From assembly GCF_009914755.1 (NCBI RefSeq), contig NC_060928.1: DNA of 64,000 nt; one strand, written 5' to 3'. Positions 23,145 through 54,713 of this stretch are shown one piece after another. This stretch comes from the human T2T-CHM13v2.0 reference genome, Homo sapiens. Both the position numbers and the translations under genes were made by a program. Position 1 is the first letter of the stretch. Every line of letters begins with the position of its first letter. The notes beneath the pieces were generated by a model that had not been told where the DNA came from, ran no database searches, and saw nothing but the letters and a program-made list of their open reading frames with translations.

Positions 23145-25481
23145 TGATATTGTTTGGCTCTATGCCCCCATCAAAATCTCATCTGTAGCTCCCATAATTT
23201 CCATGTGTTGAGGGAGAAACCCATTAGGAGATGATGGAATCATGGGAGCAGGCCTTTCCTGTGCTGCTCTCATGATAGCGAATGGGTTTCACAATATTTG
23301 ATGGTTTTAAAAAACATCTGCACAAGCTCTCACTTTGTCTGCCAACATTCATGTAAGATTTAACTTGCACCCTTGCCTTCCACCATGATTGTGAGGCCTC
23401 CCCAGCCACGTGGAACTGTGAGTCCAGTTAAAAGATCTTTCTTTTGTAAATTGCCCAGTCTTGGGTTTGTCTTCATCAGCAGCATGAAAACAGACGATTA
23501 CAGTAATTTGGTACCAGTAGAGTAGGGCACTTCTGAAAAGATACATGAAAATGTGGAAGTGACTTTGGAACTGAGTAACAGGCAGAGGTTGGAACAGTTT
23601 GAAAGGCCCAGAAAAAGACAGGAAAATGTGGGAAAGTTTGAAACTTCCTAGAGACTTGTTGAATGGCTTTGCCAAAAATCCTGATAGTGATATGGACAAT
23701 AAAGTCCAGTCTGAGGGGGTCTCAGGTAGAAATGAGGAACTCACTGGGAACTGGATCAAAGGTGACTCTTGTTATGTTTTCGCAAAGAGACTGGCAGCAT
23801 TTTTCTTCTGCCCTAGAGATTTGTGGAACTTTGAATTTGAGAGAGATGATTGAGAGTACCTGCTGGAAGAAATTTCTAAGCAGCAAAACATTCAAGAGGT
23901 AACTTGGGTGCTGTTAAAAGCATTTTGTTTTAAAAGGGAAACAGAGCATAAAAGTTCAGAAAATTTGCAGCCTGATGATGCAGTAGAAAACAAACAAACA
24001 AACAAAAAACACTTTCTGAGTAGAAATTTAAGCAGGCTGCAGAAATTTGCATAAGTAACAATGAGCTGAATGTTAATCCCCAAGACAATGGAGAAAATGT
24101 CTCCAGAGAATGGCAGAGATCTTTGTGGCAGCTACTCCCATCACAGGTCTGGAGGCCTAGGAGGAAAAAGTGGTTTCATGGGCCAGGCCCAGGTTCTCTG
24201 TGATGTGTGCAGCCTAAAGACTTGGTGCCCTGTGTTCTACCTACTCCAGCCATGGCTGAATGGGGCCAATGTAGAGCTCAGGCTGTGGCTTCAGAGGGTG
24301 CAAGCCTCAATCCTTAGCAGCTTCCATGTGGTATTGAGCCCAAGAGTGCAAAGAAGTCAAGAATTGACGTTTGGGAACCCCTGCCCAGATTTCAGAAGAT
24401 TTGTAGAAATGCCTGTGTGCCCAGGCAGAAGTTTGCTCTAGGGGTGGGGGCCTCATGGAGAACCTCTGCTATGTCAGTACAGAAGGGAAATGCAGGGTCA
24501 GAACCCCCACACAGAGTCCCTACTGGGGCACTGCCTAGTGGAGCTGTGAGAAGAGGGCCACCATCCTCCAGAACCTGGAATGGTAGATCCACTGACAGCT
24601 TGCACCATGTGCCTGGAAAAGCTGCTGACACTCAATGCCAGCCTGTGAAGCAGCTGGGAAGGAGGCTGTACACTGCAGAGACACAGGGATAGATCTGTTC
24701 TAGACTTTGGGAACCCAGCTCTTGCATCAGTGTTATCTGGATGTGAGACATGGAGTCAAAAGAGATCATTTTGGAGGTTTCAGATTTGACTGTCCTGCTG
24801 GAATTCGGACTTGTATGGGGCCTGTATCCCCTTTGTTTTGGCCAATTTCTCCCGCATGGAATGGCTGTACTTAACCAATGCCTATGTGTCCATTGTACCT
24901 AGGAAGTAACTAACTTGCTTTTGATTTTACAGGCTCATGGATGGAAGAGACTTGCCTTGTCATGGAAGAGACATTGGACTGTGGACTTTTGAGTTAATGC
25001 TGAAATGAGTTGAGACTTTGGGGGAACTGTTGGGAAGGCATGATTCGTTTTCAAATGTGCAGATAGGAGATTTTCAAGGGGCCAGGGGCAGAATGATATG
25101 GTTTGGCTCTTTATCCCTATCCAAACCTCATCTTGTAGCTCCCATAATTCCCATGTATTGTGGGAGGGACATAGTGGGAGATGATTAAATCATGGGAACA
25201 GGTCTTTCCTGTTCTGCTCTGGTAATAGTGAATGGGTCTAACAAGATCTGATGGTTTTTAAAACAGGAGTTTCTCTGCACAAGCTTTCTCTTTTCCTGTT
25301 ACCATCCATGTAAGAGGCAAGTTGCTTCTCTTTGCCTTCCACCATGATTTTGAGGCCTCCTCAGGCATGTGGAACTGTAAGTCCATTAAACCTCTTTTTC
25401 TGTATAAATTACCCTTTATACAGCAGCATGAGAACAGACTAATAGATATCTTTATCAGCAGCATGAGAACAGACTAATAGA
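23145..25481 (+). mobile_element. Full-length THE1 (THE1B-like) MaLR: 5'LTR 23145-23502, internal 23503-25093, 3'LTR 25094-25481
   Basis: Two TGATAT-starting LTRs. The internal region starts gtaatttggtaccag and ends ccaggggcagaa; THE1-int-type peptides appear in the ORF track. Confidence 0.97.
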
Positions 25482-29142: not shown

Positions 29143-29439
29143 CCAAGGTTCTCAAAATTTTGGTCTCAAGATCCTTAACACTTAAATAAATTTTGAGAAT
29201 TCTGAAGCACTTTTGTTTATGCTAGTACTATATACCAATATATATGCCAAATAAGATATTTTAAAAAGAAAATATTTAAATTCATTTAAGAGTACAAGAA
29301 TATTTTCATAAAAATATTTTTTAAATATAAAATGAATGAGAAGAGTGGCATTGCTTTACATTTTTGAAAATCACTATAAGTTTGACAATGGAATACAGCT
29401 AGAAAAATTTTATATTTGCTTCCATATTTAGTCTGTTGC
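29143..29439 (-). mobile_element. Charlie1a hAT transposon, 3' end
   Basis: ggttctcaaaattttggtctcaagatcc...cttttgtttatg...tgagaagagtggcattgctttacatttttg matches the reverse complement of the Charlie1a 3' terminus. Confidence 0.8.
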
Positions 29440-31505
29440 TATATTAGTTTATTTTCACACTGCTAATAAGACATAACTGAGACTGGGCAATTTACAAAAA
29501 AAAAGAGGTTTAATTGGACTCACAATTCCACATGGCTGGGGAGGCCTCACAATTATGGCAGAAAGCAAAGAGGAGCAAGTCACATCTTACATGGATGGCA
29601 GCAGGAAAAATAGAGAGCTTGTGCAGGGCAATTCCCATTTTTAAAACCATCAGGTCTTGTGAGGCCCATTCACTATCAGGAGAACATCATGGGAAAGACC
29701 AGCTCCCATTATTCAATCATCTCCCATCAGGTCCTTCCCACAACATGTGGGAATTATGGGAGCTACAAGATGAGATTTGGGTGGGGACACAGCCAAACCA
29801 TATTATTACACCTCTGGCCCCTCCCAAATCTCATATCGTCATGCTTCAAAACCAACTGTGCCTTCTCAACAGTCCCCCAAAGTCTCAACTCATTTCAGCA
29901 TTAATTCAAAAGTCCATAGTCCAAAGTCTCATCCAAGACAAGGCAAATCTCTTACACCTATGAGCCTGTAAAATCAAAAGCAAGTTAGTTACATCCTAGA
30001 TACAATGGGGGTACAGGCATTTGGTAAATACTGCCATTCCACATGGGAGAAATTGGCCAAAACAAAGGGGCTACGGCTCCCATGCAAGTCCAAAATCCAG
30101 CAGGGCAGTCAAATCTGAAAGCTCCAAAATGATCTCTTTTGACTCCATGTCTCGCATCAAGGTAATGCTGATGCAAGAATTGGGTTCCCAAAGTCTAGAA
30201 CAGCTCCACCCCTATGGCTCTGCACTGTACAGCCTCCCTCCCAGCTGCTTTCATGGGGTAGTGTTGAGTTTCTGCAGCTTTTCCAGGCATGTGGTGCAAG
30301 CTGTCAGTGGATCTCCTTTTCTAGGCTCTGGAGGATGGTGGTCCTCTTCTCACAGCTCCACTAGGCAGTGCCCCAGTATGGACTCTGTGTGAGGGCCCCA
30401 ATTCTACATTTTCCTTCTGTACTGCCATAGCAGATGTTCCCCATGAGGAAATCACCCCTACTGCAAACTTCTGCCCGGGCTTCCAGGCATTTCTATACAT
30501 CTTCTAAAGTCTAGGCAAAGGTTCCCAAACCTCAAATCTTGAATTCTGTGCACTCTCAGTCTCAACAGCACATGGAAGCTGCCAAGGCTTAAGGTTTGCA
30601 CCCTGTGAAGCCATGGCCCAAGGTCTACACTGGCCCCTTTCAGACAAGGCTGGAACAACTGGGATGAAGGACACCAAGTCTCTAGGTTGCACTCAGCATG
30701 GAGAACCTTGGCTTGGCCCATGAAACCACTTTTTTCTCCTCGACCTCCAGGCCTGTGATGGGAGGGGCTGCCACCAAAGTCTCTGACATTCCCTGGAGAC
30801 GTTTTCTTTACTGTCTTGGGGATTAAGATTTGGCTCGTCATTACTGATGCAAATTTCTGTCGCCAGCTTGAGTTTCTTTTCAGAAAGCGAGGTTTTCTTT
30901 CCTATTGCACCATCATGCTGCAAATTTTCTGAACTTTTATGCTCTGTTTCCCTTTTAAAACAGAATGCCTTTGAAAGCACCAAGTCACCTCTTGAATTCT
31001 TTGCTGCTTAGAAATTTCTTCCACCAGATATCCTCAATCATCTCTCTCAAGTTAAAAGTTCCACAAGTCTCTAGGGCAGAAGCAAAATGCTGCCAGTCTT
31101 TTTGCTAAAACATAACAAGAGTCACCTTTCATCCAGTTCCCAGTGAGTTCCTCCTTTCCACCTGAGACCACCTCAGCTTGGAATTTATTGTCCATATAGC
31201 TATCAGCATTTTAGGCAAAGCCATTCAACAAGTTCCTAGGAAGTTCTAAACTTTCCCACATTTTCCTGTCTTCTTCTGAGCCCTCCAAACTCTTCCAATT
31301 TCTACATGTTACCCAGTTCCAAAGTAGTTTCCACATTTTTGGGTATCTTTTCAGCAATGCCCCACTCTACTGGTACCAATTTACTTTATTAGTCTTTTCA
31401 TGCTGCTGATAAATATATACCTAAGACTGGGTAATTTACAAGAGAAAGGGGTTTAATTGGACTCAGTGTTCCACATGGCTGAGGAGGCCTTGCAATCATG
31501 GTGGA
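29440..31505 (-). mobile_element. THE1 (THE1B-like) MaLR: 3'LTR 29440-29805, internal 29806-31384, 5'LTR truncated at 31505
   Basis: Antisense LTR-int-LTR. The right LTR stops abruptly after about 120 bp at caatcatggtgga. Confidence 0.96.
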
Positions 31506-31559
31506 CCATTGTCAGACTCTCAGTTAATCTTTCCTAGATGTAGACAAGGAAAGGCCTTG

Positions 31560-32489
31560 TCCACTTCCCACCCACCCACCCAGGGCTGGAATGTATTATA
31601 TATTTAAATATATTTCTTGGTTTATTCACTAGAACTGACTATAGGTTTCTTGGTCTAGAATTCTAACAATATTCAGCATTCTTTTACTAAGTACCTTCTG
31701 CCATTAATATACTATTAATACAAGCCAAAACATTGAGGACCTATAGGAATAAAAAGGAGAAAAGCAGATCATCTATTAAGGTTTCTTAAAATAAGAAATT
31801 AGAAGTGTATATAAATACATATATTAATGATAGTGTAGATGGTTGAGGATACTTGTTTCTGATGTCTTTTTATCTCTTTCATCAATTGTCATCATTCTCT
31901 TCTTTAAATTTTCTAAAATAATGTTCTTAAATTTCTCAATATTTAACATTTTATACATTCATGGAGTTAATTGCAAGAGAAAGATAGTGTCATATTGTGA
32001 TTAATCATAAAAAAAGTATATTTGGTCTTTGTACAGTTTCCTGGCACACAACTCCTAAAACTCTTGTGATAAGCATCTTTGTGTATGCTAATAAATGTGC
32101 GTTTCTGGATAGCCTCAGGATGAGGACTCATTGCCAGGGGAACCAGCCATATGATCAGAGGGTTGGAATTTCAGGCCCAGCCTCTGACCTCTAGGGAAGA
32201 GAGAAGGACAAGGAGCTAGAGGTTGTGTTAATCCCCAATGTCCAATAATTTAATCAATCACCACTATATAATAAAGTCTCCATAAAAAGCCAAAAGGACA
32301 GGGTTCAGAGTGATTCTGGGTTGGTGAACATATGAAGGTGCTAGGAGCATTGTTCTTGCATAATGTGTGGAAGCTCTTTGCCTCTTCTTTCCTTTTTTTG
32401 CTCTATGCATCACTTCCATCTGACTGTCCCTCAGTTTCATGTGTTTATAATAAACTAGTGATCTTGTAAGTAAAGTGTTTTCCTGAATT
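31560..32489 (+). repeat. Inverted repeat arm A (930 bp)
   Basis: Reverse complement of 34696-35628, aligned by eye end to end. ORFs 31997+ and 34939- give near-identical peptides. Confidence 0.98.
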
Positions 32490-32862
32490 TTATGAGCTAT
32501 TCTGGCAAACGATCAAACCCAAGTTGGTATTTGTGAAAACCTCCAATTTATAGTTGCTCAGTCTTAAGCATGGGTGACAACCTGAACTTGGGAATGGTAT
32601 TTGCAGTGGGATGGGGCAGCAGTTCTGTGGAACTGAGTCCTTAGCCTATGGGACCTACCATTATCTAACAATGAATAGTATCTGAATTAAGTTTAATCAA
32701 AGGACACTCAGGTGACATCTGTGGAAAATTGGAGAACTGAGTTGTGGGAAAGATACCCATACAGCGGAGAGATACCCATGACACTCAGAGACGTGTCATG
32801 GAAGTATTGGATGTATAATAAGAAAAACAGAGTTTTTTTTTTTTTTTTCTTTAGTTGGTGTC
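31988..32862 (+). mobile_element. MER21-type LTR (MER21B/C-like)
   Basis: tgtcatattgtga...tatatttggtcttt...tttcctggcacacaactcctaaaa start. It continues across the inner end of arm A to ttggtgtcag. Confidence 0.8.
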
Positions 32863-32921
32863 AGTTTAAGTAAAAGCAGTTATTTTTTTGGTTACTTTTA
32901 AAAATAAAATTGCAGATGGTC

Positions 32922-33543
32922 CAATAGTTCTCCATGTGTGTGGTCCAAAAGGTCTAAACTATTGTCATAATAATAGTAAAACTCATTTTATTTTTCACTC
33001 TGTGATAGTTGCACTGATGGTACAAAGGCAATGGTGAGTAAAGCTGCTGGTGTTTTATTACGGTAGCATTCCACTGTACAAGTGTTTATTTTAGTCTTTG
33101 CTGCCACAAATGCACAGAAAATATAGTGCTATTTTCACTTAAAAGTGTTCTTGAAGAAAAAAATTACTAAATATCAACCCCTGAGTACGTGACTTTGTAA
33201 AATAGTCTCTGTGAGAAAATGGTAAAAACAACAACCAAAAACCCCACAACTTTTCTACTGCCTACCAATCAATAATTTTTACACTATCTCTCAGAAAACC
33301 ACTTAAGTACATGCTTCAGTTGTGAGTCACATTAGCTTTTTCAATGTAACAACATATTTAATGAAACTGATTAACAGATAAACACTGGCTATTTACAATT
33401 CGATTATTTGGCAGACGTTTTCTTGAAAATAAACAAGGAAAACCTTTCATGATGAGAAAAATGGCTGACATTATTATTGCCAATTAAAAATTCAAGTGTG
33501 TAAGCAAAAATTATAAGATCGTAAAACCTGTATCTGCCCCTCA
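32922..33543 (+). mobile_element. Charlie1a hAT transposon, 5' part (short pieces resume at ~34132-34187 and ~34658-34695)
   Basis: tgtggtcc...aaactattgtcataataat...ttgcactgatggtacaaaggcaatggtgagtaaagctgctgg matches the Charlie1a 5' end. Confidence 0.8.
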
Positions 33544-34131
33544 TGTATTAGTCAGGGCTCTCCAGAGGGAGAGAACCAATAGAATATATGTGTACATATA
33601 TATATATATAAAATGAATTTATTAAGGAGAATTGGCTCACATGATCACTAGGTGAAGTCCCACAGTAGTTGGTCTGCAAACTAGGAAAAAGAGAAGCCAG
33701 TAATGGCTCAGTCTGAGTCTGAAAGGTTGAAAACCAGGGAAGCCAGCAGTGCAGCCTTCAGTCTGTAGTTAAAGGCCTGAGATCCCCTGACAAACCACTG
33801 GTGTAAGTCTCAAAACCCAAAGGCTGAAGAATCTGGAGTCTGATGTCCAGGGGCAAAATAAGCAGAAAGAAACAAACAGCACAGAAAAAGGAGGAAGTCA
33901 GAAGGCCCCACAAGCAAAGTTATCCCTCTATCGTCCACCTGCTTTTTTCTAGGCATGCTGGCATGGATGGTGCCCACCCACGTTGAAGGCGGTCTTCCTT
34001 TCCCACTCCACTGACTCAAACGTCAGTCTTCTCTGGCAATACCCTCATAGACACACCCATAAACAATACTTTACCAGCCACCTAGACATCATTCAACCCA
34101 ATCAAATTGACATCTAATATTAACCATCACA
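33544..34131 (-). mobile_element. MLT2 solo LTR (HERV-L; MLT2A2-like)
   Basis: tgtattagtcagggctctccagagg...(TA)n...caaattgacatctaatattaaccatcaca. Confidence 0.92.
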
Positions 34132-34187
34132 CACCATATGCTTCATACTTTTTCAACATATAAAGAGTTTACTGATAAGTTTGGTCA

Positions 34188-34657
34188 TGAGAAGAAAATA
34201 GGTTTTAATTTGAAGTATGCAAATTCCTTTAAATATCAGATCCAGGGAGGCATTTAAAATGTGACAGCACTCATGCATCACTCCCACCTTGAGCTAAGTA
34301 ATTACTTCTTGAAGACACTTGCTATATGAGTGTATATTAGATTAACAGATGCCAAGTAACCATAAAATGCCATGTATGCTGGACATCATAACTCATATCC
34401 TATAGTTTAAAAATACATAGCCAATCATTAATCAATGTTATCTCTACAAACCAATGAGAATTCCTGTCAAACAACCTTGTATCAGCCCACTCCTGGTTTC
34501 CTTTTGCCTGTAAAAACCAGCTTGTAACAAAGGCTGAATGGAGAACTCCCCCAGGCAACATGGAAATGTGTCCTTTCTGGGCAGCTGTTCTCATTTTGGC
34601 TGATGTAAACACTTTAAAATTATATTTTCTGCCTCAACTTCTTCCATTAGGTCAACA
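34188..34657 (+). mobile_element. Solo LTR (LTR47-like)
   Basis: TG...CA ends (tgagaagaaaa / taggtcaaca); cctttaaatatcag, ttgagctaagtaattac, CCAAT boxes. Confidence 0.7.
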
Positions 34658-34695
34658 TTTCTAGTAGGAATAGATATGATTACTTCATGTTATAT

Positions 34696-35628
34696 AATTC
34701 AGGAAAACACTTTAGTTACAAGATCACTAATTTATTATAAACACATGAAACTGAGGGACAGTCAGAAGCAAGTGATGCATAGGGCAAAAAACTGAAAGAA
34801 GAGGCAAAGAGCTTCCACATATTATCCAAGAACAGTGTTCTCCCGGCACCTTCATAAGTTCACCAACCCAGAATCACTCTGAACCCTGTCCTTTTGGCTT
34901 TTTATGGAGACTTTATTATATAGTGGTGATTGATTAAATTATTGGACATTGGGGATTAACACAACCTCTAGCTCCTTGTCCTTCTCTCTTCCCTGGAGGT
35001 CAGAGGCTGGGCCTGAAATTCCAACCCTCTGATCATATGGCTGGTTCCCCTGGCAATGAGTCCTCATCCTGAGGCTATCCAGAAACGCACATTCATTAGC
35101 ATTCACAAAGATGCTTATCACAAGAGTTTTAGGAGTTGTGTGCCAGGAAACTGTACAAAGACCAAATATACCTTTTTTTATGATTAATCACAATATGACA
35201 CTATCTTTCTCTTGCAATTAACTCCATGAATGTATAAAATGTTAAATATTGAGAAATTTAAGAACATTATTTTAGAAAATTTAAAGAAGAGAATGATGAC
35301 AATTGATGAAAGAGATAAAAAGACATCAGAAACAAGTATCCTCAACCATCTATACTATCATTAATATATGTATTTATATACACTTCTATTTTCTTATTTT
35401 AAGAAACCTTAATAGATGATCTGCTTTTCTCCTTTTTAATCCTATAGGTCCTCAATGTTTTGGCTTGTATTAATAGTGTATTAATGGCAGAAGGTACTTA
35501 GTAAAAGAATGCTGAATATTGTTAGAATTCTAGACCAAGAAACCTATAGTCAGTTCTAGTGAATAAACCAAGAAATATATTTAAATATATAATACATTCC
35601 AGCCCTGGGTGGGTGGGTGGGAAGTGGA
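34696..35628 (-). repeat. Inverted repeat arm B (933 bp), including a 5' MER21 copy cut at 34696
   Basis: Reverse complement of 31560-32489. Confidence 0.98.
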
Positions 35629-35780
35629 GAGCAGGAGTTGATATGAGTTAAACCATAACATATTGTTAACAAACTTACAGAAGATAGTGCCAAGCATAGT
35701 GGGGGAGTTTGCCTGTTAAGACAAATAATAAAAATAACTCTTTATCTGTACTAGATAAGCATAAATAAAAATGATGCAAA

Positions 35781-36117
35781 TGCACGAAATAAAAGTATTT
35801 CACCCAAAATATACCTCTTTAACATTTTGAGATGAGTGTTCAGAGAGCCAGCAAACAGAAGTACCCCTGCAAAGCTGTCTTTTGTGGGGGAGATTTGCAT
35901 CTATAGAGAAAATCTGCATTGATGCAGTCAGGCTTTCTCCCAGGCCTTTCCTTGTCTGCATCTAGGAAAGATTAACTGAGAGTCTGACAACTTTAAAGGT
36001 CTGAAAGAAATGCTTACCCTCTATTCTCTCTGAGAGCTGTTACCTATGAGATTTTATCTACACAACAGGCCACCTTTCCTTGTCAAGCCTATTCCTTTCC
36101 CCCTCCTGTTTTGTCAC
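35781..36117 (+). mobile_element. ERV1 MER4-group LTR, 5' half (LTR49-like)
   Basis: tatttcacccaaaatatac...ccctgcaaagctgtcttttgtgggggagatttgcatct. Confidence 0.75.
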
Positions 36118-36589: not shown

Positions 36590-39500
36590 TGAGAACATCA
36601 GAGGAATCCAAATGCCTAGGCAGATAGGGGAGGGTCCATGGTGAAATCCCACCTTCAAGCCAAAAACAGCCTGAAGGCTAAAAGTCCAGACTGCTGGTAC
36701 CAGATGAAATCCACTACCCACAGTGAAAACTTCTGTTCCTGTTTGCCTGCCCTTTCTTAATTGATTCTTTCTCAATAATGCCTTTTAACCAATCAAATGT
36801 TGCCTTTGTCAATACTACCTATGGCCTGCCCCTCCCCTATTCTGAGCCCTGGACCCAGCTACGTGAGGAGGAGAGAACCACCCAACTGCAGGGGCCCACA
36901 CCCTGCATCCCCCTCTCCACTGAGATCTTATTGTCTGCTCTCCTTACTCTTCAATGTTCAGTATATTCTTATCCTTCTTGGGCATAGCACAAGAGCTCAG
37001 GAACTGCTGAACGTGGGTACAAGATATAAGACAGGCAAGTGAGGGCATGCCAGTGTGGCTGAGTGGGACCTCGGCAGGGCATCACCAACTGGAGATCCCC
37101 AGCTTGCAAAGTCACCGAAAAGAAAATCTTGCATCATTTTGCCGGCTCCTGTGGGATACCTGAAGGGTGAGCGAATGCAGACCTAAAATCTTCACTTATT
37201 TCCGAGGCTTCTTGTCCTCAGACATTTTTCTGAAGGCAGATGAAGCACTGGACCTCTGATTAGCTAGTTAAGAGCAATGGCACAGCTACAGTCCTTTGGA
37301 CCCCACCTCCCCATCTCTCTCGGGGGCTGGGAATGTCGACCTCCTTCCAATCCAGTTTTTTCTATGGCATTTTTTCTTCCTTTTTTTCAGGGCTGTCATG
37401 GCCCTTATCCCTTCTTTTACAATGTTAGGAGTGTTGTTGCCAACTACAGAGATATTACTGGGTGAAATGAACATTCATCCCAGCCATCAGATATGCAATT
37501 CAGAACAATGTGGTTTCTGTCTATTCTTAGAGGCAAAGAGGAAGCAGAGATTAAAAGTTTCTCTCTCAGTTGGAGGAACCCAGTTGCATAGAGCAAGAGG
37601 CTTTTTCTTTCAGGCACCTTCACCACCCTGCACTTAAGCTGGCTTTTTATTGTCTTTTCTCCACCATGTCAAGAGTTAACACTGCCCTATGAATACAGGG
37701 AGCTTTTCTATGCAAAAGGTGTTTTCTGTTTGTTTGTTAATTTTTATTGATTTCTATTTATTTATTTACTTATTTAACCTTTTGAAAGGCATATTACTAG
37801 GCCAGGACCCCAATTCTCCCTTCCCCTTGTTTGAGGAGGATCCAGTTCCACAGCTTTATCTTAGCATTGGACTTAATGATAAGGAAGAAGTGAAGGAGCA
37901 GCCCCGCCAGCTGCTGGCTGCAGTCTGGTGAGGGACACCTGACATTTAATTTAATGAGTCCATAAACCCTCCTGAAGCACCTTCTTGCCCCAAACTTAAT
38001 TCCAAGCTTCAGGTTGAAGTCCTAGAAAGGGAAACTAGATCTGAGGGATCCAAAGGCAGGCACAATGGAAGTCAAGGGGCACTGCACAGGTGAGCATGAC
38101 TAATTTCTGCTGATTAGTCCCCCTGCCCTGACATTTTATGAGTAGATGTCATGCTAGCATCCATGGCATAGATGAGGTTACTGACAGCAGGGAGCATAGG
38201 CCAGCACATAGGTGTGTGTGAATATTTTCTACCCTCTATGCCTCCCCATTAACATGGGTGAAACCCAAGCCAGATTGTCACCCATGGGCTGTACCTTGCT
38301 GAGGTTGCTGGGACCTGGGCCTATAAAGACAGAAAAAAGAAAGGGATTGCCTTATCTTTTTCTTCCTCATGTACCTCGGGTATTTACTGGGAGGAAAAAA
38401 GAACTAGGAGATGGCTTTTTCCCCTCTTTCTGGATGGGTAATTGGCCATCTTCTATCTGTACTTCTCTTGCATATATCCTGAATCACTGGAACCCTTTGG
38501 AAATCAAATCAAAACAAAACAAAACAAAACAAAAACACCTACTTTTTTATTTTCCTCCTATGTCTTATCTTCGTAGATGGATAATTGTGTCCCAGTACCA
38601 CAGGACACTACCCTCAGAAGCATCCCTCAAACTGGGAAATTTAATTTTCCCACACCTTAAACTCTGGCTTAAAATGTACTGGGAAGAAATTACAGATCTA
38701 ACTGAGAAAATTTCTTGAGGGCAGACAACTTTTACAGTATGAAAAAAACCTCTTTCTCTGCTTCCTTTTCACAGGACTCCAGGGTAGATAAGACTCCATA
38801 TCTCGGGACAAGGGAACCCAGAAGCCTGACATGCTGGAAAAGGTTAAAAGTTTTTTGTTGTTGTTGTTTTGTTTTGTTTTTGTTTTTGTTTTACCAGACT
38901 TCTGAACTCTCTCTCTCCCTATGCAAACTAGTAAAAGGAATGGTAATGATGACTATTTATATCCTCTCTAAAGTTTCGATTAATGGAATAAAGGATTTGT
39001 GAGGCTAGTCTTAAGCTGTAGTGGATCTGTTGTACTTTTTGCTAATATTTGTCTTTCTGTATCTTTCTATCAAAAAGATCATTCCCTCAGGATAGAATGT
39101 GGGCTTAGGACCCCATAAGCCCACTGTTCAAGCCAGATCAGCAAACCGTCAGTAACAAACTTTGCTACAAATCTCCATCTTGTTTTACATTCTTGGGAGT
39201 TTGACCTTGTAACCATGTGGCAATACTTTCTTTTGGTTTCTGCCATTTTACAATGATGGCCCAGGTTCAATCCTGGCTTAGGGAATGAGTACATCCTGGT
39301 TAATATCTGTGTGACTTTTGCCATTTGCTCATTCTCTTCCCCTCCGTGAACAACTTCTAGATTCCTTTCTTAAATCTTCCTTTCTCTGGGCTACATTTAA
39401 AGTTTCTAGATTTTGTAAAAACTGCTTACCACCTCTTTGAAAATAGCTTGTACACTGGCAGTTAAGTAATAACCTTAGTTGAGGTTTGTTGATTTCACCT

Positions 39501-42500
39501 GTGAGGTTACTTTTGGTGATTTTCAAAAGCCAGAAATATGGCTGTTTGGTGTGGTTGAAGTCGGGTAATAAGGGATTTATGCGGATTTTTTTTTCTTTTA
39601 AAGAGCACTATGGTTAAAAGTCAGCTTAATTAAAAGTGGATATACAAGCTATAGGTATATTCAAAAGACCCTTATGTTTTTTCTTCTCAGGACTTGTTTT
39701 TCTGGAAAAGGATATTTTCTCAGTTGACTGAATTATTTTTTTCCATTTTGTCTTGCCATTCTTTTTGCACACATGAGAGGCCCAAGATAACTTCTGATAG
39801 CCTGAGACTTCTTGGGAAAAACTTTACCAAGAGGACACCAGTTATCCCATTTTGGGCAAAAAAAAAAAAAACTGTTTTCCTCATGGAACCCCAGGAATTG
39901 AAAGCAGATAAGATTCCTCTCAAAATCTGTTTGTCTTCCAGCTAAGTCTGTTGGGCCCTCAAAGCTGCATGCTTTCCTAGTCCTGCTTTTTGAAGGACTC
40001 CACCCAGAGGCCAATAATCCAATTAGGAGGTTGGCAAATGAAAAATCTTATAACTACTGGATCTTCTTCTCTCTGTCTGTGTAATCATACATGTGTTATG
40101 TGTGTAATGTTTGTATAAAAAAGAGCTCTAATTAATTGGCTTAAAGAAAATAAGTGCTTAGATCAAATATTTTTGAAGGAAAAATAAAAGCGGTAATGTC
40201 TTTTCGTTCATGTGACGTTAATCTTTGAAAGATAAAAACAGTTTTAGATATGATTCATAAAGCAAAATGTCATCAGAATGTAAATATGTGGTCTAAATTA
40301 TGCAGGTGAGACACTGGGTTTGCTAAATGTTTTAAGGTTATAAACTGCTTCTTCAGCTTTTGAGAACTGACTCACCTGCTTTACAATTTGTAAGGCCTGG
40401 GAACATATGGAATTAACCACACCCCTAAATATGCTGGAAATAGTCGGGCTTTATCTGTGCTTAGTACGTAATTAAGATAACTTATCAGTTTTACATTAAA
40501 ATTAAAAATTGCTAAGAGTTTTGAGACTACTGAAAATAGCTTTACATGCAAGGTGTGTAAGAAAAGTAAAATGTGTTTTTAGTAAAATATTATAAGGAGA
40601 TATGGAAATAGGAATGTAAATTTTTGCCTAATTTAGAGGTTTAGAGGGTTGTTTTAAATTAGATAAGATAAAGCTAAAGATTTAAATAAGTTGTGGAAGG
40701 TTTGTAAAAATTAATCTTGCAAAAGAAATTCTGTGTGTGAACATTTTGACTCAATTATAATAGGTATTATATAGTTTTTCCATAAATTGAGTGTTGAAAT
40801 GAAAGAACAACAAGGTTTTTTAAGACACTGATCTGCTCTTTAACAGAAGTTATAAAGGGTTATAAAATGTTTATAAGAATCTCACCTCATAGTCAAACTA
40901 GTTAAGTTTGGATAGAATTATCTTAGGTTTCATTAAAAAAAATTGGGGTTGACATTAATAGTTAGACAAATGCAAGGGTGAAATTTGGCTTTCTCTCCAC
41001 TGAACAAGATTTTGATGTAATAGTGAAAAATAATGACAGTTTTTGTTTGCCTTGTGAATAAACTGCCGAAAAAGGGAAGGGAGAAATAGGAGACAGATTG
41101 TTTGGAAAGCTAAGTCTTCCTATTAATGAGTAAAACGTTTTTGCCTTTTAAAAAATTTTTGAGTCACCATTTTGGCTAAACAAATTACTTTATGGTAATT
41201 TGAAATTCCAATTCATAATATCAGTGTTTTAACCTCTTACATATTTAATAAACTTCCTAAAATCAAACTTATTTTCAAGGTTGTTTTTTCTGACCCCTAA
41301 CTTTTGAATGCTATAGAGGGCCCCTGGAGCATCCAAACAAGAGGTAAACAGGATTATTTGGCATGGGATTGCCAATATAAAAAGAATGTTTAATCTTCTT
41401 TAGGTTATATTTTGGTGAATAATATTAATACATGTTCCAATATTGTTATGGGATTTTAAAAATTCTACTGTCTGAGAATATGCTATCAACTATGATTAAG
41501 GTTATTATGTTAAGTTATTGTAAACCACAGAAATAACCAAATTTATTTGTCCATTTTGTTTTTAACTGTAACTACCCTGGACATTTTGACATTCACAGAC
41601 AATTGTTGTCTTGTTTTGTTCCTCTTCAAAAGATGGTTTATAATCACCTATAGAACTTTGCCAGGTGCTCTTAAATGCAGGTTTCTGATAGCCTTGAAAA
41701 CTGTGACATTGGAATAGAGAAATAACATACAGGACTCATGAAGAGCTAAAATGTTTATGAATATCAAGCAGAACAAAAGTTAACTGAATGGACTGAACTG
41801 ACAGAAAACTGAAGTAATCTTTTTAACTTTTTGCTGAAAACATTGCTGATCCTTGTTTTGCTTTTCAGAGTCAAAGAAACTTTTCTTTTTAGTTATCTAC
41901 AGCTTTTAACAATTGAGCCAGGTAACCATTTGTGAATAAAATTTGTAGCCTATTTGTTTCTCTCTGCCTGGTTTCTCCAGAATTTGGAAACTACTGTTGA
42001 GTATTCTTAATTTATGGTGATATAGTCATTTGCATAAGTGCAATAAGAATCCATTTTCTTTTGTGACAGGACACGATTGGAGAAACTGGTTGTTTTTACC
42101 AAGGCTTTAACTGGAAGGGTATGCTTCCCTTTAAGGAATCAAGGTTGACTTGCAGAGCCAATAAAAGCCCCTTGGGAATATTCACCTCATATCTTGTCTA
42201 CACAGTCTCCTTATAGGTTTCCTAACCTGTGGTGAGTAAAGTATGTCAATTTCTAACAGCCCCAGGAGCCCCATGTTATCTTGGGACCTCCAGAAGTGTG
42301 GAATTTACCCAACTCACAGATGTTTGAGGGTAAAAACCCATGACTGCATTTGTTTTTAAAAAGTCTTATGTGAGATTCCTTATAGAACAGAGTTTCATCA
42401 AAGCCAATTTAAAAAGCCTATGTAAAAAATAATTATTCTTGCTGCACTTTATGGAAATTATCAAGCCAAGGATAAGAAAAAAGTTTATTATGCAAACAAC

Positions 42501-43480
42501 TGAGTCCTATCATAATTTGTATTTACAAAAATGAACACTGGAGAGAGAAAAAATATATTTCAAAACTTATACACTTGTCATTAAATTTCCATCTCATTAG
42601 TTGTTTTTAAGTTTTTGCCTACATTTTAAACTAACTGTGCTTATTCCTGTGAACCAAACTGTAATCTCTGGCTGCAGCTCAGAAAAAAACAAAAGGGATG
42701 GGCCATCAAAGTGCAAATGATAATGCAACCAGAGCTTTGGACGATGGCTCTTTTTTACTGGGGACCTTTACACAGGCCTCTGAGGAAGATCTGACTGACA
42801 TTTTCCCAAAACAGTGCCCCTTATTGGCAAGAAGCAGTTAAGATTTGTCTTTGTCCTTGTTCTAATGGCAATTTTATGTACCTCTTCAGAAGGGGGAAAT
42901 GAGATTGGCAGGAGGCAGCCAAATGCCTATGCAGATAGGGGCAGGTCCCCAGTGAAGCCTCACCTTCAAGCCAAAACAGGCTAAATGCTGAAAGTTTGGA
43001 CTTCTGGTCCAGGATCAAACCTATGACCCAGAGTGAGAACTTCTGTTTCTGTTTACCTGCCTTTTTCCAATTGATTATTTCTGAATAATGCATTTTAACT
43101 AATGGAATATTGCCTTTTCCCATACTACTCATGGCCTGCCCCTCTCCTATTCTGAGCTCATAAGAAGCCCTACACCCAGCCATGCTGGGAGGAGAGAACC
43201 ACCCAACTGTGGGGTTGGAGGACCATGCCCCTGTGTCCCTTCTGTGTTGAGATCTGTTCCGTCACTCAACAAAATTCTCTGCCCTTCTCATATTTCAGTT
43301 TCCAGCTTATTCTCATTCTTCTTGGATGTGGTACAAGAGTTCAGGAACTACTGTACATGGATTCAAGCTACAACACAGGTGAGTTGGGGTATGCCAGCAT
43401 GGCCAAGGGGGTCCCAGGTGAGGTTTTGCCAGCCACAGGTCCCCAGCTTGCAAAGTGACCAAGAAGAAAATCCTTCATTG
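36590..43480 (+). mobile_element. Non-autonomous ERV1 provirus with MER61-like LTRs (5'LTR 36590-37136, 3'LTR 42900-43480)
   Basis: Homologous LTR pair (ccaaatgcctaggcagataggg...caccttcaagccaaaa); PPT agaagggggaaa before 42900; 4-bp TSD taag (36586-36589 and 43481-43484); AT-rich MER4-group internal region with no intact ORF. Confidence 0.9.
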
Positions 43481-43812: not shown

Positions 43813-46800
43813 TAGATGCTATACCTTTCAGCTGTGTCTGCTTTTCACATATTTAAATATTAAGCCCTAAAAACTGCAAATGCTTTGCTGGCCCAGCTCC
43901 TTAATGGGCTCAATCCTGAGCTCAACAGTCCAGTTGGAAAATAGACTAAAATAAAAAGCCATCGTGTAAATAAAATTGGTCTTCTTTTAGAAGCCTATGG
44001 CAAATTTTTATAATTTTTTGCTACCTTGACATCCATTTTTAATCTTTCCCTAGCTATACACACAAACTCCTTCTTGAAAAAGCTTAAATTCTCTCTCTCT
44101 CTCTCTGGGCTTTGAAATGTAAATTTGCTACCCTGTTTTCTCTAAAACTCAGTGAGGGCTTCAGCCATGTGGGACAGATAAACCTTAACCTTTTCCATTT
44201 ACAAAGGCACAGTTCAAATCCAATTGTCCTTTTAAACTTGTGAGTTTTAGAGGTCTCATGGCTAAAATTTTAAAATCAAGCCGTAGTCTTTCTATTTGTC
44301 TGCATTTTTATGTATATGTGCTTACCTGTCTCTGTAAATTCTCCTTATGGTACCAAATTGACTTATAAATAAATGAGTTCTCATAAATTAAGTAAATAAT
44401 CCCAAATGCTTTTCAAATTCACATTGCTTTAGTAATCTCATGGTATATGAGATAAGTTTAATGTTGTTGGTTTAATAAAAATAACTATGTCTTTTGAGTT
44501 ATCAGCAATACATGCATGTGTTTAACTTTAAGGTCCTTCCTTTTATAATACTTGCCTGACATACAGTAATATAAAAATAGTAAACAAAAAATTTAACTTG
44601 AGATGATGGCTGGATTTCTCTAATGTTTCATGACACTTTTAAAACATAATTGTTAAGAATAAATAGACGTAAATGGAATAAATGTTTATCAATTAACTTT
44701 TAATAATACTTATGTGTTATAATATGTTTACTTATAAAGATTTCTCAAATTTTTTGGCAACTGTACTTTTAGATTTTTGCTAAGCAAGGTGATATTATAT
44801 ACATTCATTGAATATCTAAATTATTTCCAAATAAGATATAGTGCCAAGACATTAATTACTATAATAAATATAAGTTTAAGCTCATATATTTTGGCTTATT
44901 TCAGAGAAACAAGAAAGTTATTTAGATCTATTAGTAAATATGACCTGTTTCCCATTTTTAAAATGTTCTTTTGGAAAGCCCGTATTTCTAAAAGTTATAA
45001 AATATGTAATCATACACTGTTAGTGTGTGGCTACCAATTAAAAATTGATAGCTTCCAAGGATTTTTTTTACTGATATTAAGACTTTCTAAGAGTTAGCAT
45101 TGTAATCAATATTTGTAATAAAAACTACTCAATAGAAGAAAAATACATCTGTATGCAAATTCTAAAAAAAGTGCTTTTGATAAAAAAGACAGTAAAACAT
45201 GAAAATGTGTTTTTTTGTTAAAGAAAAATCACTTTTTTCTAGTTAGGAAGTTACTTAAAGGTTGCTTTAATATAAATGAAATAACAAATAAAATTCAATG
45301 GGTATAAAATGTTGGGAAAAGAAAGACAATGAAAATATTGTAAGAGGTTATAAAAGGTTTATAAAAATCTTATTTTTTGTGGTCAAAGCTGATTGAGATT
45401 GGATAGACCTGTTTATAAGGTTTTCTTAAGATGTACTTTAGCATCAATAATACACTGATGTAAAGGTAGAATTTAGTTTATTTTTTGAATACTATTTTTA
45501 TATAGTATTAATAAGAAATAGCAAAAGATTTTATTACCTTTTAAGTAAACTGCAGACAATTAATAGGAGAGATTTTGTTCCATGCTGTCTTCAGTAGGTG
45601 TTCTGATTATTTTGAAAATTGAGTCTCTTCGCTATTGAAGAGTAAAGGTTTTTGCTTTTTGAACTCTTCAAATTATTTCTTTGGCTAAATAAATATTTTA
45701 CAGTGACCTGTAATTCTATTTTGATCAAGTGTTTTAAATACTTGATATTTGACAAACTTTCCAAAATCAGTTTTAAAATTCTAAATTAAGTTTTTGACCT
45801 CAAATTTAACTTTTGGACTCTGGTATATAAAAGTCATATGGAAAACTATGTTAAATAAGAAAGTAAGAAATGATGTTTGACTTTTTATAGTTATATTTGT
45901 GTAAATGTGTTATTACTATGTCTTCCAAAATTGTATGAGGTTCTCAAAATTCATATACATATTGGTATATGTTATCAGTCATAATTATAATTATTATGTG
46001 AAATTATTGTATGCCATACAAATAACTTAATTTCCTTGTCAATTGTGTCTTTCGCCAAGGTTATTCTAAGTCTTGTCGACATACAACTATTGCTTTACTT
46101 TGATTCTTCTCACAAAGTGGTTTATAATTATCCATAATCCAAAATTTGTATCTTCTTCAAGGAAATTCATGGAAAAGACCCTGATAATTATTCCTGAGTA
46201 CAGATTTTTGATAACTTTAGAGACCATACTATTGGACTAGGTAGAAGCTTTCAAAACTAATTAAAAAGCTGATGTGTTTATGAAAATTGCTAACTACATC
46301 AAGTAAAACTATAGTTAATTACATGAAATTGAACTGGTAGAGATCTAAAATGATTTTTATGACTCTTTTTGCTTGAAACATTGATGATTCTCTCTATCTT
46401 TTGTTTTCCAGAGTCAAGAAACTTATTATATTTGAGCTATTAATAGTTACAGCAATTTGGACAAAGTATGCTCTTGTGAGCAAAACTGAAATATTTACCT
46501 TTCTCTCTCTACCTGAATTCTCCAGAATGCAGAAACTATCAGGGATTATCTTTATTTTATGGCAATATAGTTATCTGTATAAGTTCAATAAGAATATGTT
46601 TTCTTTTCTAATAGAACACAATTGAAAATGCTGGTTATTTTACCAAGGCTTTGACCTGAATGACATATTTTCAGATATGAACAAATTGCTTTGAGAAATT
46701 GAATTTGACTTACAGAGCTGATAAAAGTTTCCTTTAAAAGACTGGCCTGGCACCTTGTCTACATGGTTTCCTTACAAGATTCCTGACCTTGTGGTGTGTA

Positions 46801-47918
46801 AAGAATGTCACTTGTTAACACTCCCAAGATCTGCAAGATATTTTAGAAACTTAAGATTTTTTTGTGACCTCGAGATAAATGGAATTCACCCAGTTTGAAT
46901 AGGTATCACAGGCACAATCTAGTGGCAAAAATTTCTCTTGGATTTTTGGCCTTGAGGGGCTTTTAAAAGTCTAATCTGGTATTTCTTATGAAAAAGTTCT
47001 AGAAAAGCCGGTTGAAAACAGTCTATATGTTCAATTACTATTTTTGATGTACTTTATTAAAAAAAATCAGACCAAGTATAATAAAACTAAAGCTTATTTC
47101 AAAAATAAATTGGTATTAATATGTGCTGAAAAAATGGGACTGGAGGGAGAAATATTATGTTTTGGAAAAAAAAAACAACTAAATTACACCTATTATTAGA
47201 TTATAGTCCTAATCATTGTTTTTGAGTTGTATTCTTTGCCTATAATTTGGGCTGAATTCTTTCCTGGGTACAAATGTCCAAACTAATGTGTTCAAAATTT
47301 CCTCCCAGTTTTCTCACATGAAATCACTAGAAATTAAAACTTTGATTTTTCTGAAGCCCTGCAAACTAAAGCTAGACAACTTAATATAAACTTAGCAGAG
47401 ATCACTATAACAGCTTATATATAAACAGCCTTCATGCCTGTTGATGTGTGAACTACTCAAGAAGTTTATTTGAACATCTGATTCAAACTACAGTTCAAGA
47501 AAAATCTTTCAAATTACCACTGCAATCTGAAGAGATTTCAGAAACTCTACAAAAACTAGTTTATATACTAGTCCAAACATTAACTTTCAGTTTCCTTCTG
47601 TTTCCATAGAATTGCTTCTTATAAAACATCTGTTTGCCTGCATGATATATAAAGGGCTAGCCCATCTACAATGTCACCTCCTGGATGGGACACAGCTGTT
47701 CAGCCAAACTGATGTATTCTCAGCACTAGGAGACTGATTCAAGCAGATATGAGATAATACACTTAAATTTGTTCTTGTCTTCTATTCCATTTTTTTCCCT
47801 TCTTACGCCTAGGTTTTTTTTTTTTTTTTTTCTAAGAACCTCTAATCCAAATCTTTCCACAGTAATGAATCAAGTCTTTTATGTGTGAAACTTCTAGGAA
47901 AATTTCAGATAGGGTGAA
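43813..47918 (+). mobile_element. MER4-group ERV1 internal sequence (5'-deleted)
   Basis: Collinear similarity with the 40-42.6 kb internal region (e.g. ttttaccaaggcttt, aagaatgtcact); ends in a PPT-like tract before an LTR. Confidence 0.8.
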
Positions 47919-49955: not shown

Positions 49956-50118
49956 ATTTCACATTTCCAATGAAGTATTTCAGTCATGTCTTCTTCTTGT
50001 TGCTTCCAGAAAAAGAAATAACTTTAAATAATTTAGAAATCCCATCTTCAAATTATGCTTTTCTCAAGATTTGCTACCTTTATTTGCTTTATTTCAGCTT
50101 AGCAGTCATGCGTTAATC

Positions 50119-50233
50119 TAAGTTTACCAACCATGCTGTTTTTCTTGAGACTGAGGAAATTTCCTGGACAGAGTTCTTTCAGTGCTAAAATTAGGAAACT
50201 CCTAGGCAAAAACAAGGATGACTGGTCACTCTA
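50119..50233. mobile_element. MER81-like hAT-Blackjack MITE
   Basis: gactgagg...tttcagtgctaaaa...ggatgactggtcactcta. Confidence 0.7.
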
Positions 50234-50518: not shown

Positions 50519-52066
50519 TGAGGAATCTTGGAAATGTTTATGAAAAATGCATAATATGTGAAAACTATGCATGGATTTTAATTTTTTTTGCAGCAAAATA
50601 AATTCATGTAAACTTGTTATAACATGTTTGAACATGATCTGCAAAACAGTATGGTTGGTAATCCTAGATGAGGACATGACTGATACATTGAAATAAAGCA
50701 AATCAAGGTGGTAAATCTTGAGAACAGCGTAATTTAATGATGAGATTTCTAAATTATTTGAAGTTACTTTTTTTTTTTTTTTTTTTGCTAGAAGCAACAC
50801 GAAAAATAAGACTTGATTCTGAAATACTTTACTATAAGTGTTAAACCTGTTAAGGCGGGTTTATAATTATAACCCACCAATTTTAAACCTCATATCCATT
50901 TGAGGTAATAAGAAAGATAAGACATCAGTTTGAAAAAAGCCCCATCAGAGTAACATGAATTCTGCTAAAATTAAAGAAAGAACAAACATCAAACTTATAG
51001 TGAAGCTTGAATGGAAGGAAAGTGAAATTATTGATGCTTTACAAAAATTTATGGACATAATGCCCCAAAGAAATCAGCAGTTTAAAAATGGGTAACTTGT
51101 TTTACAGGATAAAACAATGTTGAAAATGAAGTCAATAGCTGCAGACCATCCACACTAATTTGTGAGAAAAAAAATCATCTTGTTCATGCCTTAATTGAAG
51201 AGGACCAACAATTAACAGCTCAAATGATAGTAAACAATATAGACATCTTAATTGGTTCAGATTACACCACTTGACTAAAAATTACACTTGAGCAAACTTT
51301 ATACTTGATGGGTGCCAAAACCATTGTGCCCAGTCAGCTGTAGACAACAGTAGAGCTTTCAGTGGAAATTTTGAACAAGTGGGATAACAATTATAAAGCA
51401 TTTTTTCAAAGAATTGGAACAGGTGATAAAACATGGCTTTACCCAGACTATTTTGAAGGCAAAGCACAAGCAAAGAAATAATTACCAAGAGGTGAAATTG
51501 GTCCAGGTAAAGCAAAAACAGACCAGTCAAGAACAAAGGTCAAGGCAGCAGTTTTAAGGGATACGCAATGCATTTTGCTTATTGATTTTCCAGAAGGCCA
51601 AAGAATGATAACATCTGTTTATTATGAGAGTGTTTTGAGAAAGTCAGCCGTAGCTTTAGGAGAAAAGCACCCAGGAAAGCTTCACCAAGAGCCCTTCTCC
51701 ACCACGACAATGTTCCTGCTCACTCCTCTCTTCAAACAAGGTCAATTTTATGAGAATTTTCATGGGAAATCATTATATTTATACCTTAAAGTCCTGATTT
51801 GGCTCCTTCTGACTTCTTTTTGTTTCCTGATATTAAAAACAATCTCTAAAGGAAACCCATTTTTCTTTAGTTAATAATGTAATGAACCATTGACATGGTT
51901 AAATTCTCAAGACCTGCAATTCTTTTGAGATGGATGGATGAAATTAATGGTACTATCACCTACAAAAGTGTCTTGAACTTGATGAAACTTATAATGAGAA
52001 ATAAATTTTACAATTTTACTATTTCTCCTTTAATTCAATTTTCCACAAATTTTTGAAGTCCTCCTG
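50519..52066 (+). mobile_element. Full-length HSMAR2 mariner with a 258-bp insert at 50641-50898
   Basis: TIR-like ends (tgaggaatcttggaaatgtttatgaaaaa / ttttccacaaatttttgaagtcctcctg); 5'UTR aaaactatgcatggattt; transposase start atgaattctgctaaaatt. Confidence 0.93.
50955..52004 (+). pseudogene. Decayed Hsmar2 mariner transposase
   Basis: Starts MNSAKIKERTNIK. ORF 51575 gives LIDFPEGQRMITSVYYESVLRK..EKHPGKLHQ, typical of the mariner catalytic domain. Multiple stops and frameshifts. Confidence 0.9.

Positions 52067-53166: not shown

Positions 53167-54713
<1,547 letters not shown>

What the first reader, a model, noticed from the sequence alone, without database searches (positions are those of the whole stretch)
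29143..34695. A split Charlie1a shows the spacer is flipped relative to the ancestor
Seen: the Charlie1a 3' end lies on the minus strand at 29143-29439, while its 5' half lies on the plus strand at 32922-34695 (interrupted by MLT2 and an LTR47-like LTR) and stops at arm B. MER21 runs unbroken from arm A into the spacer but is cut at the inner end of arm B. Inference: flipping the spacer restores one minus-strand Charlie1a, so the ancestral order was THE1 - inverted spacer - arm B, and this haplotype has the derived orientation plus a deletion.
Basis: partly seen in the sequence, partly recalled or inferred. Interest (0 to 1): 0.7.

Follow-up and report, generated by a model that had tools for sequence, protein, structure and literature searches.

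The report
Flipped DNA segment with two-age arms
In a gene-free stretch of human chromosome 4, the pieces of one old jumping element face opposite ways around a 2.2-kb segment flanked by mirror-image copies, so the segment was very likely turned around with loss of about 0.6 kb, likely by a copying error in a primate ancestor; it is a known kind of rearrangement, and its mirror arms likely record two different dates.

Summary
Confirmed. Against a profile built from 16 other copies of the element in this genome (1,409 columns), the plus-strand pieces occupy columns 23-731 and the minus-strand piece columns 1065-1407. They do not overlap, are collinear after flipping, and about 330 columns are missing. 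A second, independent line agrees: the MER21-like LTR is whole only across arm A and the spacer, while the outer arm and a 49-bp tag belong natively to the right flank. So the spacer (32490-34695) is very likely inverted relative to the ancestor, with a 0.93-kb inverted duplication and a deletion of at least about 0.55 kb. The outer 770 bp differ at 0.9%, the inner 158 bp at 8.2% (p=1.7e-6), with derived changes on both arms. An old event (roughly catarrhine to early-ape age, inferred) was therefore followed by a young copy-over or a second rearrangement. Whether the flip is old or young, fixed or polymorphic, needs primate and pangenome sequence, which I could not search. Known kind of event, no gene nearby.

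The parts
29143..29439 (-). 3' end of the Charlie-type DNA transposon (name recalled), cut off by the THE1-like insertion
   Evidence: profile columns 1065-1407, E 4.4e-27; terminal repeat 8 of 11
29440..31505 (-). THE1-like LTR element (name recalled): left LTR whole (to 29803), right LTR cut after about 121 bp, about 240 bp missing
   Evidence: LTR-LTR alignment 99 matches, 21 mismatches; genome copies stop matching at 31505; left LTR extent
31506..31508 (.). junction J1: 3 bases that match neither side in register
31509..31557 (+). 49-bp inverted copy of 35942-35990, an interior piece of an LTR that is whole on the right
   Evidence: 48 of 49 identical; 39 other copies of that LTR span it
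31558..31559 (.). junction J2: 313 bp of the donor (35629-35941) skipped, 1-2 unmatched bases
31560..32329 (+). arm A, outer young layer (7 substitutions and one 1-bp indel against arm B)
   Evidence: its non-repeat part has two copies only among the matches returned
32330..32489 (+). arm A, inner old layer (13 substitutions and one 2-bp indel against arm B)
31995..32855 (+). MER21-like LTR (name recalled), unbroken from arm A into the spacer
   Evidence: 28 of 28 other copies align across 32440-32550
32490..34695 (.). spacer, 2.2 kb, inferred to be inverted relative to the ancestor
32922..33544 (+). Charlie 5' part, piece 1
   Evidence: columns 23-639, E 3.4e-66
33545..34131 (.). MLT2-like insert (name recalled) inside the Charlie element
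   Evidence: profile coordinates resume without a gap across it
34132..34187 (+). Charlie piece 2
   Evidence: columns 639-694, 32.5 bits, 0 of 200 shuffles
34188..34657 (.). LTR47-like insert (name recalled) inside the Charlie element; start approximate
   Evidence: genome copies mostly end near 34657; profile resumes across it
34658..34698 (+). Charlie piece 3, ending at junction J3
   Evidence: columns 691-731
34696..34698 (.). junction J3: 3-bp microhomology (AAT) between Charlie and the cut MER21-like LTR
34696..35628 (-). arm B (inverse of 31560-32489); carries the first about 500 bp of the MER21-like LTR; continuous with the right flank
   Evidence: 97.4% over 937 columns
35786..36110 (.). 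intact LTR of the right flank; donor of the 49-bp piece (35942-35990)

Best explanation
The 2.2-kb spacer is very likely inverted relative to the ancestor, likely by a replication or repair template switch that also copied 0.93 kb in mirror image and removed at least about 0.55 kb, and the outer 770 bp of the two arms were likely made alike again much later. Inferred ancestral order: Charlie 3' end, whole THE1, Charlie middle, Charlie 5' part with its inserts, whole MER21 (all minus), unique DNA, right LTR. Net path of the copying (inferred): leave THE1 at J1, copy 49 bp of the right LTR backwards, skip 313 bp (J2), copy backwards through arm B, MER21 and the Charlie 5' part, then rejoin forwards inside MER21 at a 3-bp microhomology (J3). 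This is the '1-3-4-2' order of the four-point template-switch model with one extra hop. J3 and the inner 158 bp are old (8.2% apart). The outer arm was last copied recently (0.9%), by one long conversion or fold-back tract (about 0.5 of this reading) or by a second rearrangement that also made J1 and J2 (about 0.5; see rivals). Shown: pieces, strands, junctions, missing sequence, two divergence levels. Inferred: ancestral order, mechanism, dates. No function is proposed; likely neutral.
For: Collinearity and non-overlap; 18 of 43 loci with both pieces in order on one strand and 0 of 43 on opposite strands; MER21 whole only on the arm A-spacer side; right flank is the donor; THE1 LTR cut at J1; junctions with 3-bp microhomology or 1-3 unmatched bases; step in divergence at 32330, 0 of 500 permutations, 7 of 770 against 13 of 158, p=1.7e-6; inner differences derived on both arms, 3 on A, 7 on B, 3 unclear of 13. 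PMC5453318 (passages) reports type 1-3-4-2 as 23% of short human-chimp events. PMC6748972 (passages) reports 18 of 21 non-homologous inversions with small deletions or insertions attributed to FoSTeS/MMBIR.
Against: No primate orthologue or second human haplotype was seen. The 8-bp target-site test gave 3 of 8; four intact control copies gave only 2-5 of 8 (termini found in 4 of 16), so it is uninformative. An inverted duplication followed by a crossover between the arms gives the same present-day sequence. The first test of piece 3 was negative (129 of 200 shuffles) until the piece was extended to 34698 and scanned over the whole profile. The four-point model was built on events of tens of bases, not kilobases.
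Confidence: 0.85

Rival explanations
1. Timing variant, young flip. An old event made only a short inverted copy of the MER21 inner part (J3) and left the spacer in place. A recent inter-strand switch (J1, J2, with a homology-guided return between 32193 and 32329) lengthened arm A, flipped the spacer and cut THE1, at about 1% divergence, near or after the human-chimpanzee split.
For: No mismatch in the outermost 150 bp and 1 in the 49-bp tag, which lies beyond a 313-bp gap: likelihood ratio 4.4 for young over old. The 7 outer differences are evenly spread (5008 of 10000 draws), as expected of one date. Arm lengthening together with spacer inversion in one switch is described at small scale for yeast REG2 (PMC8604942, passages).
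Against: Needs two non-homologous rearrangements at one locus, rarer a priori than one plus a conversion tract (inference). One mismatch or fewer in 49 bp still has p=0.08 if old.
Confidence: 0.2
2. Timing variant, old flip with young extension. An old inversion duplicated only the inner MER21 part. Later a fold-back or break-induced copy, primed in the inner homology, ran outwards along arm B, overshot into the right flank and rejoined inside THE1.
For: Explains why the inner edge is diverged (it served as primer) while the outer edge and the 49-bp tag are young. Type 3-2-1-4 and its mirror make up 31% of short events in PMC5453318 (passages).
Against: Same need for a second rearrangement; not separable from the other variants without outgroups.
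Confidence: 0.22
3. One old complex event made all three junctions, without or with the flip; later conversion, or crossover between the arms, homogenised the outer 770 bp and may still toggle the spacer as in recurrent human inversions.
For: Arms of 0.93 kb at 97.4% fall in the range of recurrent inversions, repeats over 90% identical from 654 bp (PMC6748972, passages). A dense cluster of differences with a 2-bp indel sits at the boundary and could block branch migration.
Against: The 49-bp tag looks young (1 of 49). Repeated short tracts should leave both edges diverged, not only the inner one. No inversion at this place among the 10 chr4 rows of Table S1 of PMC10150506 (44 sample columns), although the smallest of those rows is 2,966 bp.
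Confidence: 0.43
4. One recent event with a burst of errors near J3 produced the inner differences.
For: The outer arm and the tag agree on about 1%; more derived changes lie on arm B (7) than on arm A (3).
Against: Derived changes occur on both arms (3 against 7, p=0.34), and they are of mixed kinds without a single-base signature.
Confidence: 0.05
5. Two separate Charlie insertions in opposite orientation, each truncated; no inversion.
For: The family has many copies (40 of 40 scored candidates matched); the target-site match was not recovered.
Against: Each part ends exactly at a rearranged junction or at the truncated THE1; no overlap in the profile; 0 of 43 other loci show the opposite-strand arrangement; MER21 and right-flank provenance point to the flip independently.
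Confidence: 0.03

Closest known systems
Template-switch event type 1-3-4-2 / 3-1-2-4 of the four-point model (Loytynoja and Goldman 2017, PMC5453318; passages seen)
   Same: [quoted passage not shown]
   Different: Here the copied stretch is about 3.1 kb rather than tens of bases, there is an extra 313-bp hop, and the arms show two ages.
Non-homologous human inversions with deletions or insertions, attributed to FoSTeS/MMBIR (Giner-Delgado 2019, PMC6748972; passages and part of the supplements seen)
   Same: Inversion with deletion and short templated or unmatched bases at the junctions; size within 0.1-415 kb.
   Different: Those are young and polymorphic; here the inner junction looks far older and polymorphism is unknown.
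Recurrent inversions between inverted repeats (Aguado 2014, PMC3961182; Giner-Delgado 2019; passages seen)
   Same: Arms over 90% identical and over 654 bp; a high-identity sub-block inside more diverged repeats is also described there (HsInv0209, 782 bp at 99.9% within 94% repeats).
   Different: Both orientations have not been shown for this locus.
Arm homogenisation with spacer inversion by template switching (Abraham and Hazkani-Covo 2021, PMC8604942; passages seen)
   Same: One arm serves as template for the other; the REG2 case lengthens the arm and flips the spacer at once.
   Different: Yeast coding DNA, arms of 5-16 bp.

Membership tests
Charlie1a (hAT DNA transposon) | terminal inverted repeats | tested here: met
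   8 of the first 11 bases of the two termini match
Charlie1a (hAT DNA transposon) | dispersed copies of about 1.35-1.45 kb holding both parts in order | tested here: met
   18 of 43 loci; lengths 1332-1442 in the 4 of 16 copies with both termini found
Charlie1a (hAT DNA transposon) | 8-bp target-site duplication across the restored element | tested here: inconclusive
   3 of 8; intact controls 2-5 of 8
Charlie1a (hAT DNA transposon) | hAT transposase remnants | tested here: inconclusive
   0 of 11 stop-free stretches of 24-50 aa matched Pfam
Charlie1a (hAT DNA transposon) | best match to the Dfam/Repbase Charlie1a consensus | not testable with these tools
   no repeat library; name recalled; PMC5753468 (passages) only lists Charlie1a under hAT
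Template-switch inversion with inverted duplication and deletion (1-3-4-2; FoSTeS/MMBIR-like) | spacer inverted relative to the ancestor | tested here: met
   by internal markers only
Template-switch inversion with inverted duplication and deletion (1-3-4-2; FoSTeS/MMBIR-like) | inverted duplicate flanking the spacer, with deletion at the breakpoints | tested here: met
Template-switch inversion with inverted duplication and deletion (1-3-4-2; FoSTeS/MMBIR-like) | microhomology or few added bases at junctions, no long homology | tested here: met
   J3 3-bp microhomology; J1 3 and J2 1-2 unmatched bases
Template-switch inversion with inverted duplication and deletion (1-3-4-2; FoSTeS/MMBIR-like) | all junctions formed in one event | tested here: inconclusive
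   two divergence levels; the tag favours a young J1/J2 by 4.4 to 1
Recurrent polymorphic inversion between inverted repeats (InvFEST NAHR class) | inverted repeats over 90% identical and at least about 650 bp | tested here: met
   937 columns at 97.4%; range from PMC6748972
Recurrent polymorphic inversion between inverted repeats (InvFEST NAHR class) | both orientations among humans or apes | not testable with these tools
   only one human genome searchable; not among the chr4 rows of Table S1 of PMC10150506

The most novel reading that the evidence does not exclude
The locus is a kilobase-scale case of an inverted repeat growing outwards: an old 160-bp mirror copy primed a template switch near or after the human-chimpanzee split that lengthened the arm about sixfold, flipped 2.2 kb and cut a THE1 LTR, leaving a human-lineage or still-polymorphic inversion below the size that most catalogues cover.
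Probability: 0.2. Interest if true: 0.55.

Novelty: new member of a known kind. Interest (0 to 1): 0.3.

Why it matters
Modest. No gene or RefSeq functional element lies in the window, so an effect on phenotype is unlikely. Its value is as a clean, datable record of how inverted repeats arise and are rewritten: nested repeats give the ancestral order without outgroups, and the arms hold a sharp step from 0.9% to 8.2%. If the young layer marks a second rearrangement, it shows that a small old mirror copy can seed a larger inversion with deletion tens of millions of years later. It would also name a candidate 2-4 kb inversion to genotype in pangenomes. One alignment to ape and macaque assemblies would decide this.

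Tried and rejected
Target-site duplication of the restored element: 3 of 8, controls 2-5 of 8, uninformative. Flanks of the MLT2-like, LTR47-like and MER21-like inserts gave no clear duplication by eye. Pfam scan of 11 stop-free stretches: nothing. No long transposase frame stood out among 43 fetched loci, and these frames were not scanned further. Piece 3 as a templated insert from elsewhere in the window: best scores 26-27, rejected; the first test as Charlie was negative or borderline (129 and 10 of 200), resolved. The missing Charlie middle elsewhere in the window: no profile hit below E 0.3. Assembly artefact: considered unlikely because the arms differ at 20 sites and 2 indels. One-sided mutation burst: not supported. 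Literature: not among the 10 chr4 rows of Table S1 of PMC10150506 (same assembly). No hit for coordinate prefixes in the supplements of PMC11451754, PMC9712629 (file 1 not searched) or PMC1270012; those searches, apart from two T2T prefixes, rest on my recalled estimates of GRCh38/hg19/hg18/hg17 positions and are weak. The supplement held for PMC13629690 showed unrelated gene-prediction files and no 'chr4', so its list of 612 candidates was not seen. The ape-genome tables of PMC12058530 were not readable, and that list covers events over 10 kb. 'LINC02494' gave 0 papers. Two key inversion papers (Porubsky 2020, 2022) were not held under the ids tried. Absence from print is therefore not established.
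Full report
Frame. Self-comparison of the window shows two inverted arms, 31560-32493 and 34692-35628, 97.4% alike over 937 columns, and a 49-bp piece, 31509-31557, that is the inverse of 35942-35990. The non-repeat part of the arms returned only these two places in the genome search. No gene is annotated in the window (hub note). All repeat family names below are recalled; no repeat library was on hand.

Test of the split element. I searched the genome with the 5' part and the 3' part and kept 43 other loci. In 18 of the 43 both parts score 80 or more; in all 18 they lie on one strand, 5' part first, without overlap; in 0 of 43 do they lie on opposite strands; 0 of 56 background comparisons reach 80. 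A profile from 16 near full-length copies, picked from those 43, has 1,409 columns. It places 32940-33541 (+) at columns 23-639, 34132-34191 (+) at 636-695 and 29444-29143 (-) at 1065-1407. The last piece first tested negative (129 of 200 shuffles for 34657-34691 at columns 700-790). Extended to 34698 and scanned over all columns, its best place is 691-731, directly after piece 2 (8 of 200 shuffles; 0 of 200 for 34670-34698), while 34699-34730 does not fit (56 of 200). So the 5' part runs to column 731 and about 333 columns are missing. In the 16 copies the distance from the end of piece 1 to the start of the 3' piece is 333-584 bp, median 400, of which the window keeps about 93. The target-site test was uninformative (3 of 8; controls 2-5 of 8 in the 4 of 16 copies with both termini found), and Pfam found nothing in 11 short frames.

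Independent line. The MER21-like LTR (31995-32855) aligns across the inner end of arm A in 28 of 28 other copies; its arm B copy stops at base 499 of 861. The 49-bp piece is interior to an LTR that is whole on the right (35786-36110; 39 other matches span it). The THE1-like LTR left of it is cut at 31505, about 121 bp of about 364. So the outer arm belongs natively to the right flank, and the inner arm to the spacer. Both hold together only if right flank, unique DNA, whole MER21 and Charlie 5' part once ran in one line on the minus strand.

Junctions. J1 (31505/31509): 3 bases match neither side. J2 (31557/31560): 313 bp of donor skipped, 1-2 unmatched bases. J3: Charlie and the cut MER21 share AAT at 34696-34698, so arm B starts at 34696 and one apparent arm difference (32490/34695) is Charlie sequence and was dropped. 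Minimum loss: about 240 bp of LTR plus about 310-335 bp of Charlie. The net order of switch points is 1-3-4-2, which creates an inverted repeat around an inverted spacer (PMC5453318, passages). An inverted duplication followed by a crossover between the arms gives the same result and cannot be excluded.

Two ages. The outer 770 bp differ at 7 sites (0.9%, 95% CI 0.4-1.9), the inner 158 bp at 13 (8.2%, 4.5-13.7); Fisher p=1.7e-6. The change point is 32330, reached by 0 of 500 permutations (run with the 14th site still in). Polarised by 28 other MER21-like copies, the 13 inner differences are derived on arm A at 3 sites, on arm B at 7 and unclear at 3 (p=0.34), so this looks like old independent drift and not a one-sided burst. 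The two THE1-like elements of the window have LTR pairs 17.5% (21 of 120) and 17.7% (59 of 333) apart. On that local clock the inner layer is about 0.44 and the outer about 0.05 of the THE1 age (corrected values). With recalled neutral divergences (chimpanzee about 1.2%, orangutan about 3%, macaque about 6-7%) the inner layer predates the orangutan split (18.2-19.6 Ma) and the outer layer lies near the chimpanzee split (5.5-6.3 Ma; dates from PMC12058530, passages). These dates are inferences. The event cannot be older than the THE1 insertion that J1 cuts.

What made the young layer. The outermost 150 bp have no mismatch, the outer differences are evenly spread, and the 49-bp tag has 1 mismatch, favouring a young tag by 4.4 to 1. 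This fits a second rearrangement that lengthened arm A, with or without flipping the spacer; a small-scale case of arm lengthening with spacer inversion is described in yeast (PMC8604942, passages). Against it, conversion between close arms is much commoner than a second complex break (inference), and 1 or fewer mismatches in 49 still has p=0.08 if old. I put one old event with later copy-over at 0.43, old flip with young extension at 0.22, young flip at 0.20, one recent error-prone event at 0.05 and two separate insertions at 0.03. The first three all agree that the present orientation is derived.

Known or new. The class is known: non-homologous inversions with indels, and repeat-mediated recurrent inversions with arms from 654 bp (PMC6748972, passages and part of the supplements; PMC3961182, passages). 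This locus is not among the 10 chr4 rows of Table S1 of PMC10150506 (supplement 2, first 30 of 31 places seen). Other supplement searches were blank but weak or unreadable, and bioRxiv supplements are closed, so a listing elsewhere is possible. Verdict: observation confirmed, interpretation supported, new member of a known kind, interest 0.3.

Noticed in passing
window 23145-25450 and 29440-31505: Two THE1-like elements face each other 4 kb apart, 83% alike over 2,039 columns; LTR pairs of both are about 17.5% apart, so they look like separate insertions of similar age.
   Followed up: partly
window 25418-25481: The end of the first THE1-like element carries a short tandem duplication of about 27 bp and lacks a few bases of the usual LTR end (seen).
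   Followed up: no
window 36601-37134 and 42912-43478: Direct repeats 71% alike and 6.3 kb apart, likely the two LTRs of an old provirus; described only.
   Followed up: no
window 41763-42267 and 46298-46829: Direct repeats 68% alike, overlapping the span of the previous pair; relation unexplained.
   Followed up: no
window 49957-50142 and 50643-50845: Old inverted pair, 76% alike, 500 bp apart; possibly the ends of a DNA transposon.
   Followed up: no
window 9015-9326: Tandem duplication of about 155 bp, 86% alike.
   Followed up: no
window 53407-53466 and 56110-56173: 60-bp direct repeat, 84% alike, 2.7 kb apart.
   Followed up: no
G000:C4:62030552-62030994: The closest genome match (79%) to the LTR47-like insert lies only about 128 kb upstream on the same chromosome, opposite strand.
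   Followed up: no
L006:1612-1978: Another copy of the same DNA transposon also carries a THE1-like LTR inserted in it, at a different position.
   Followed up: no
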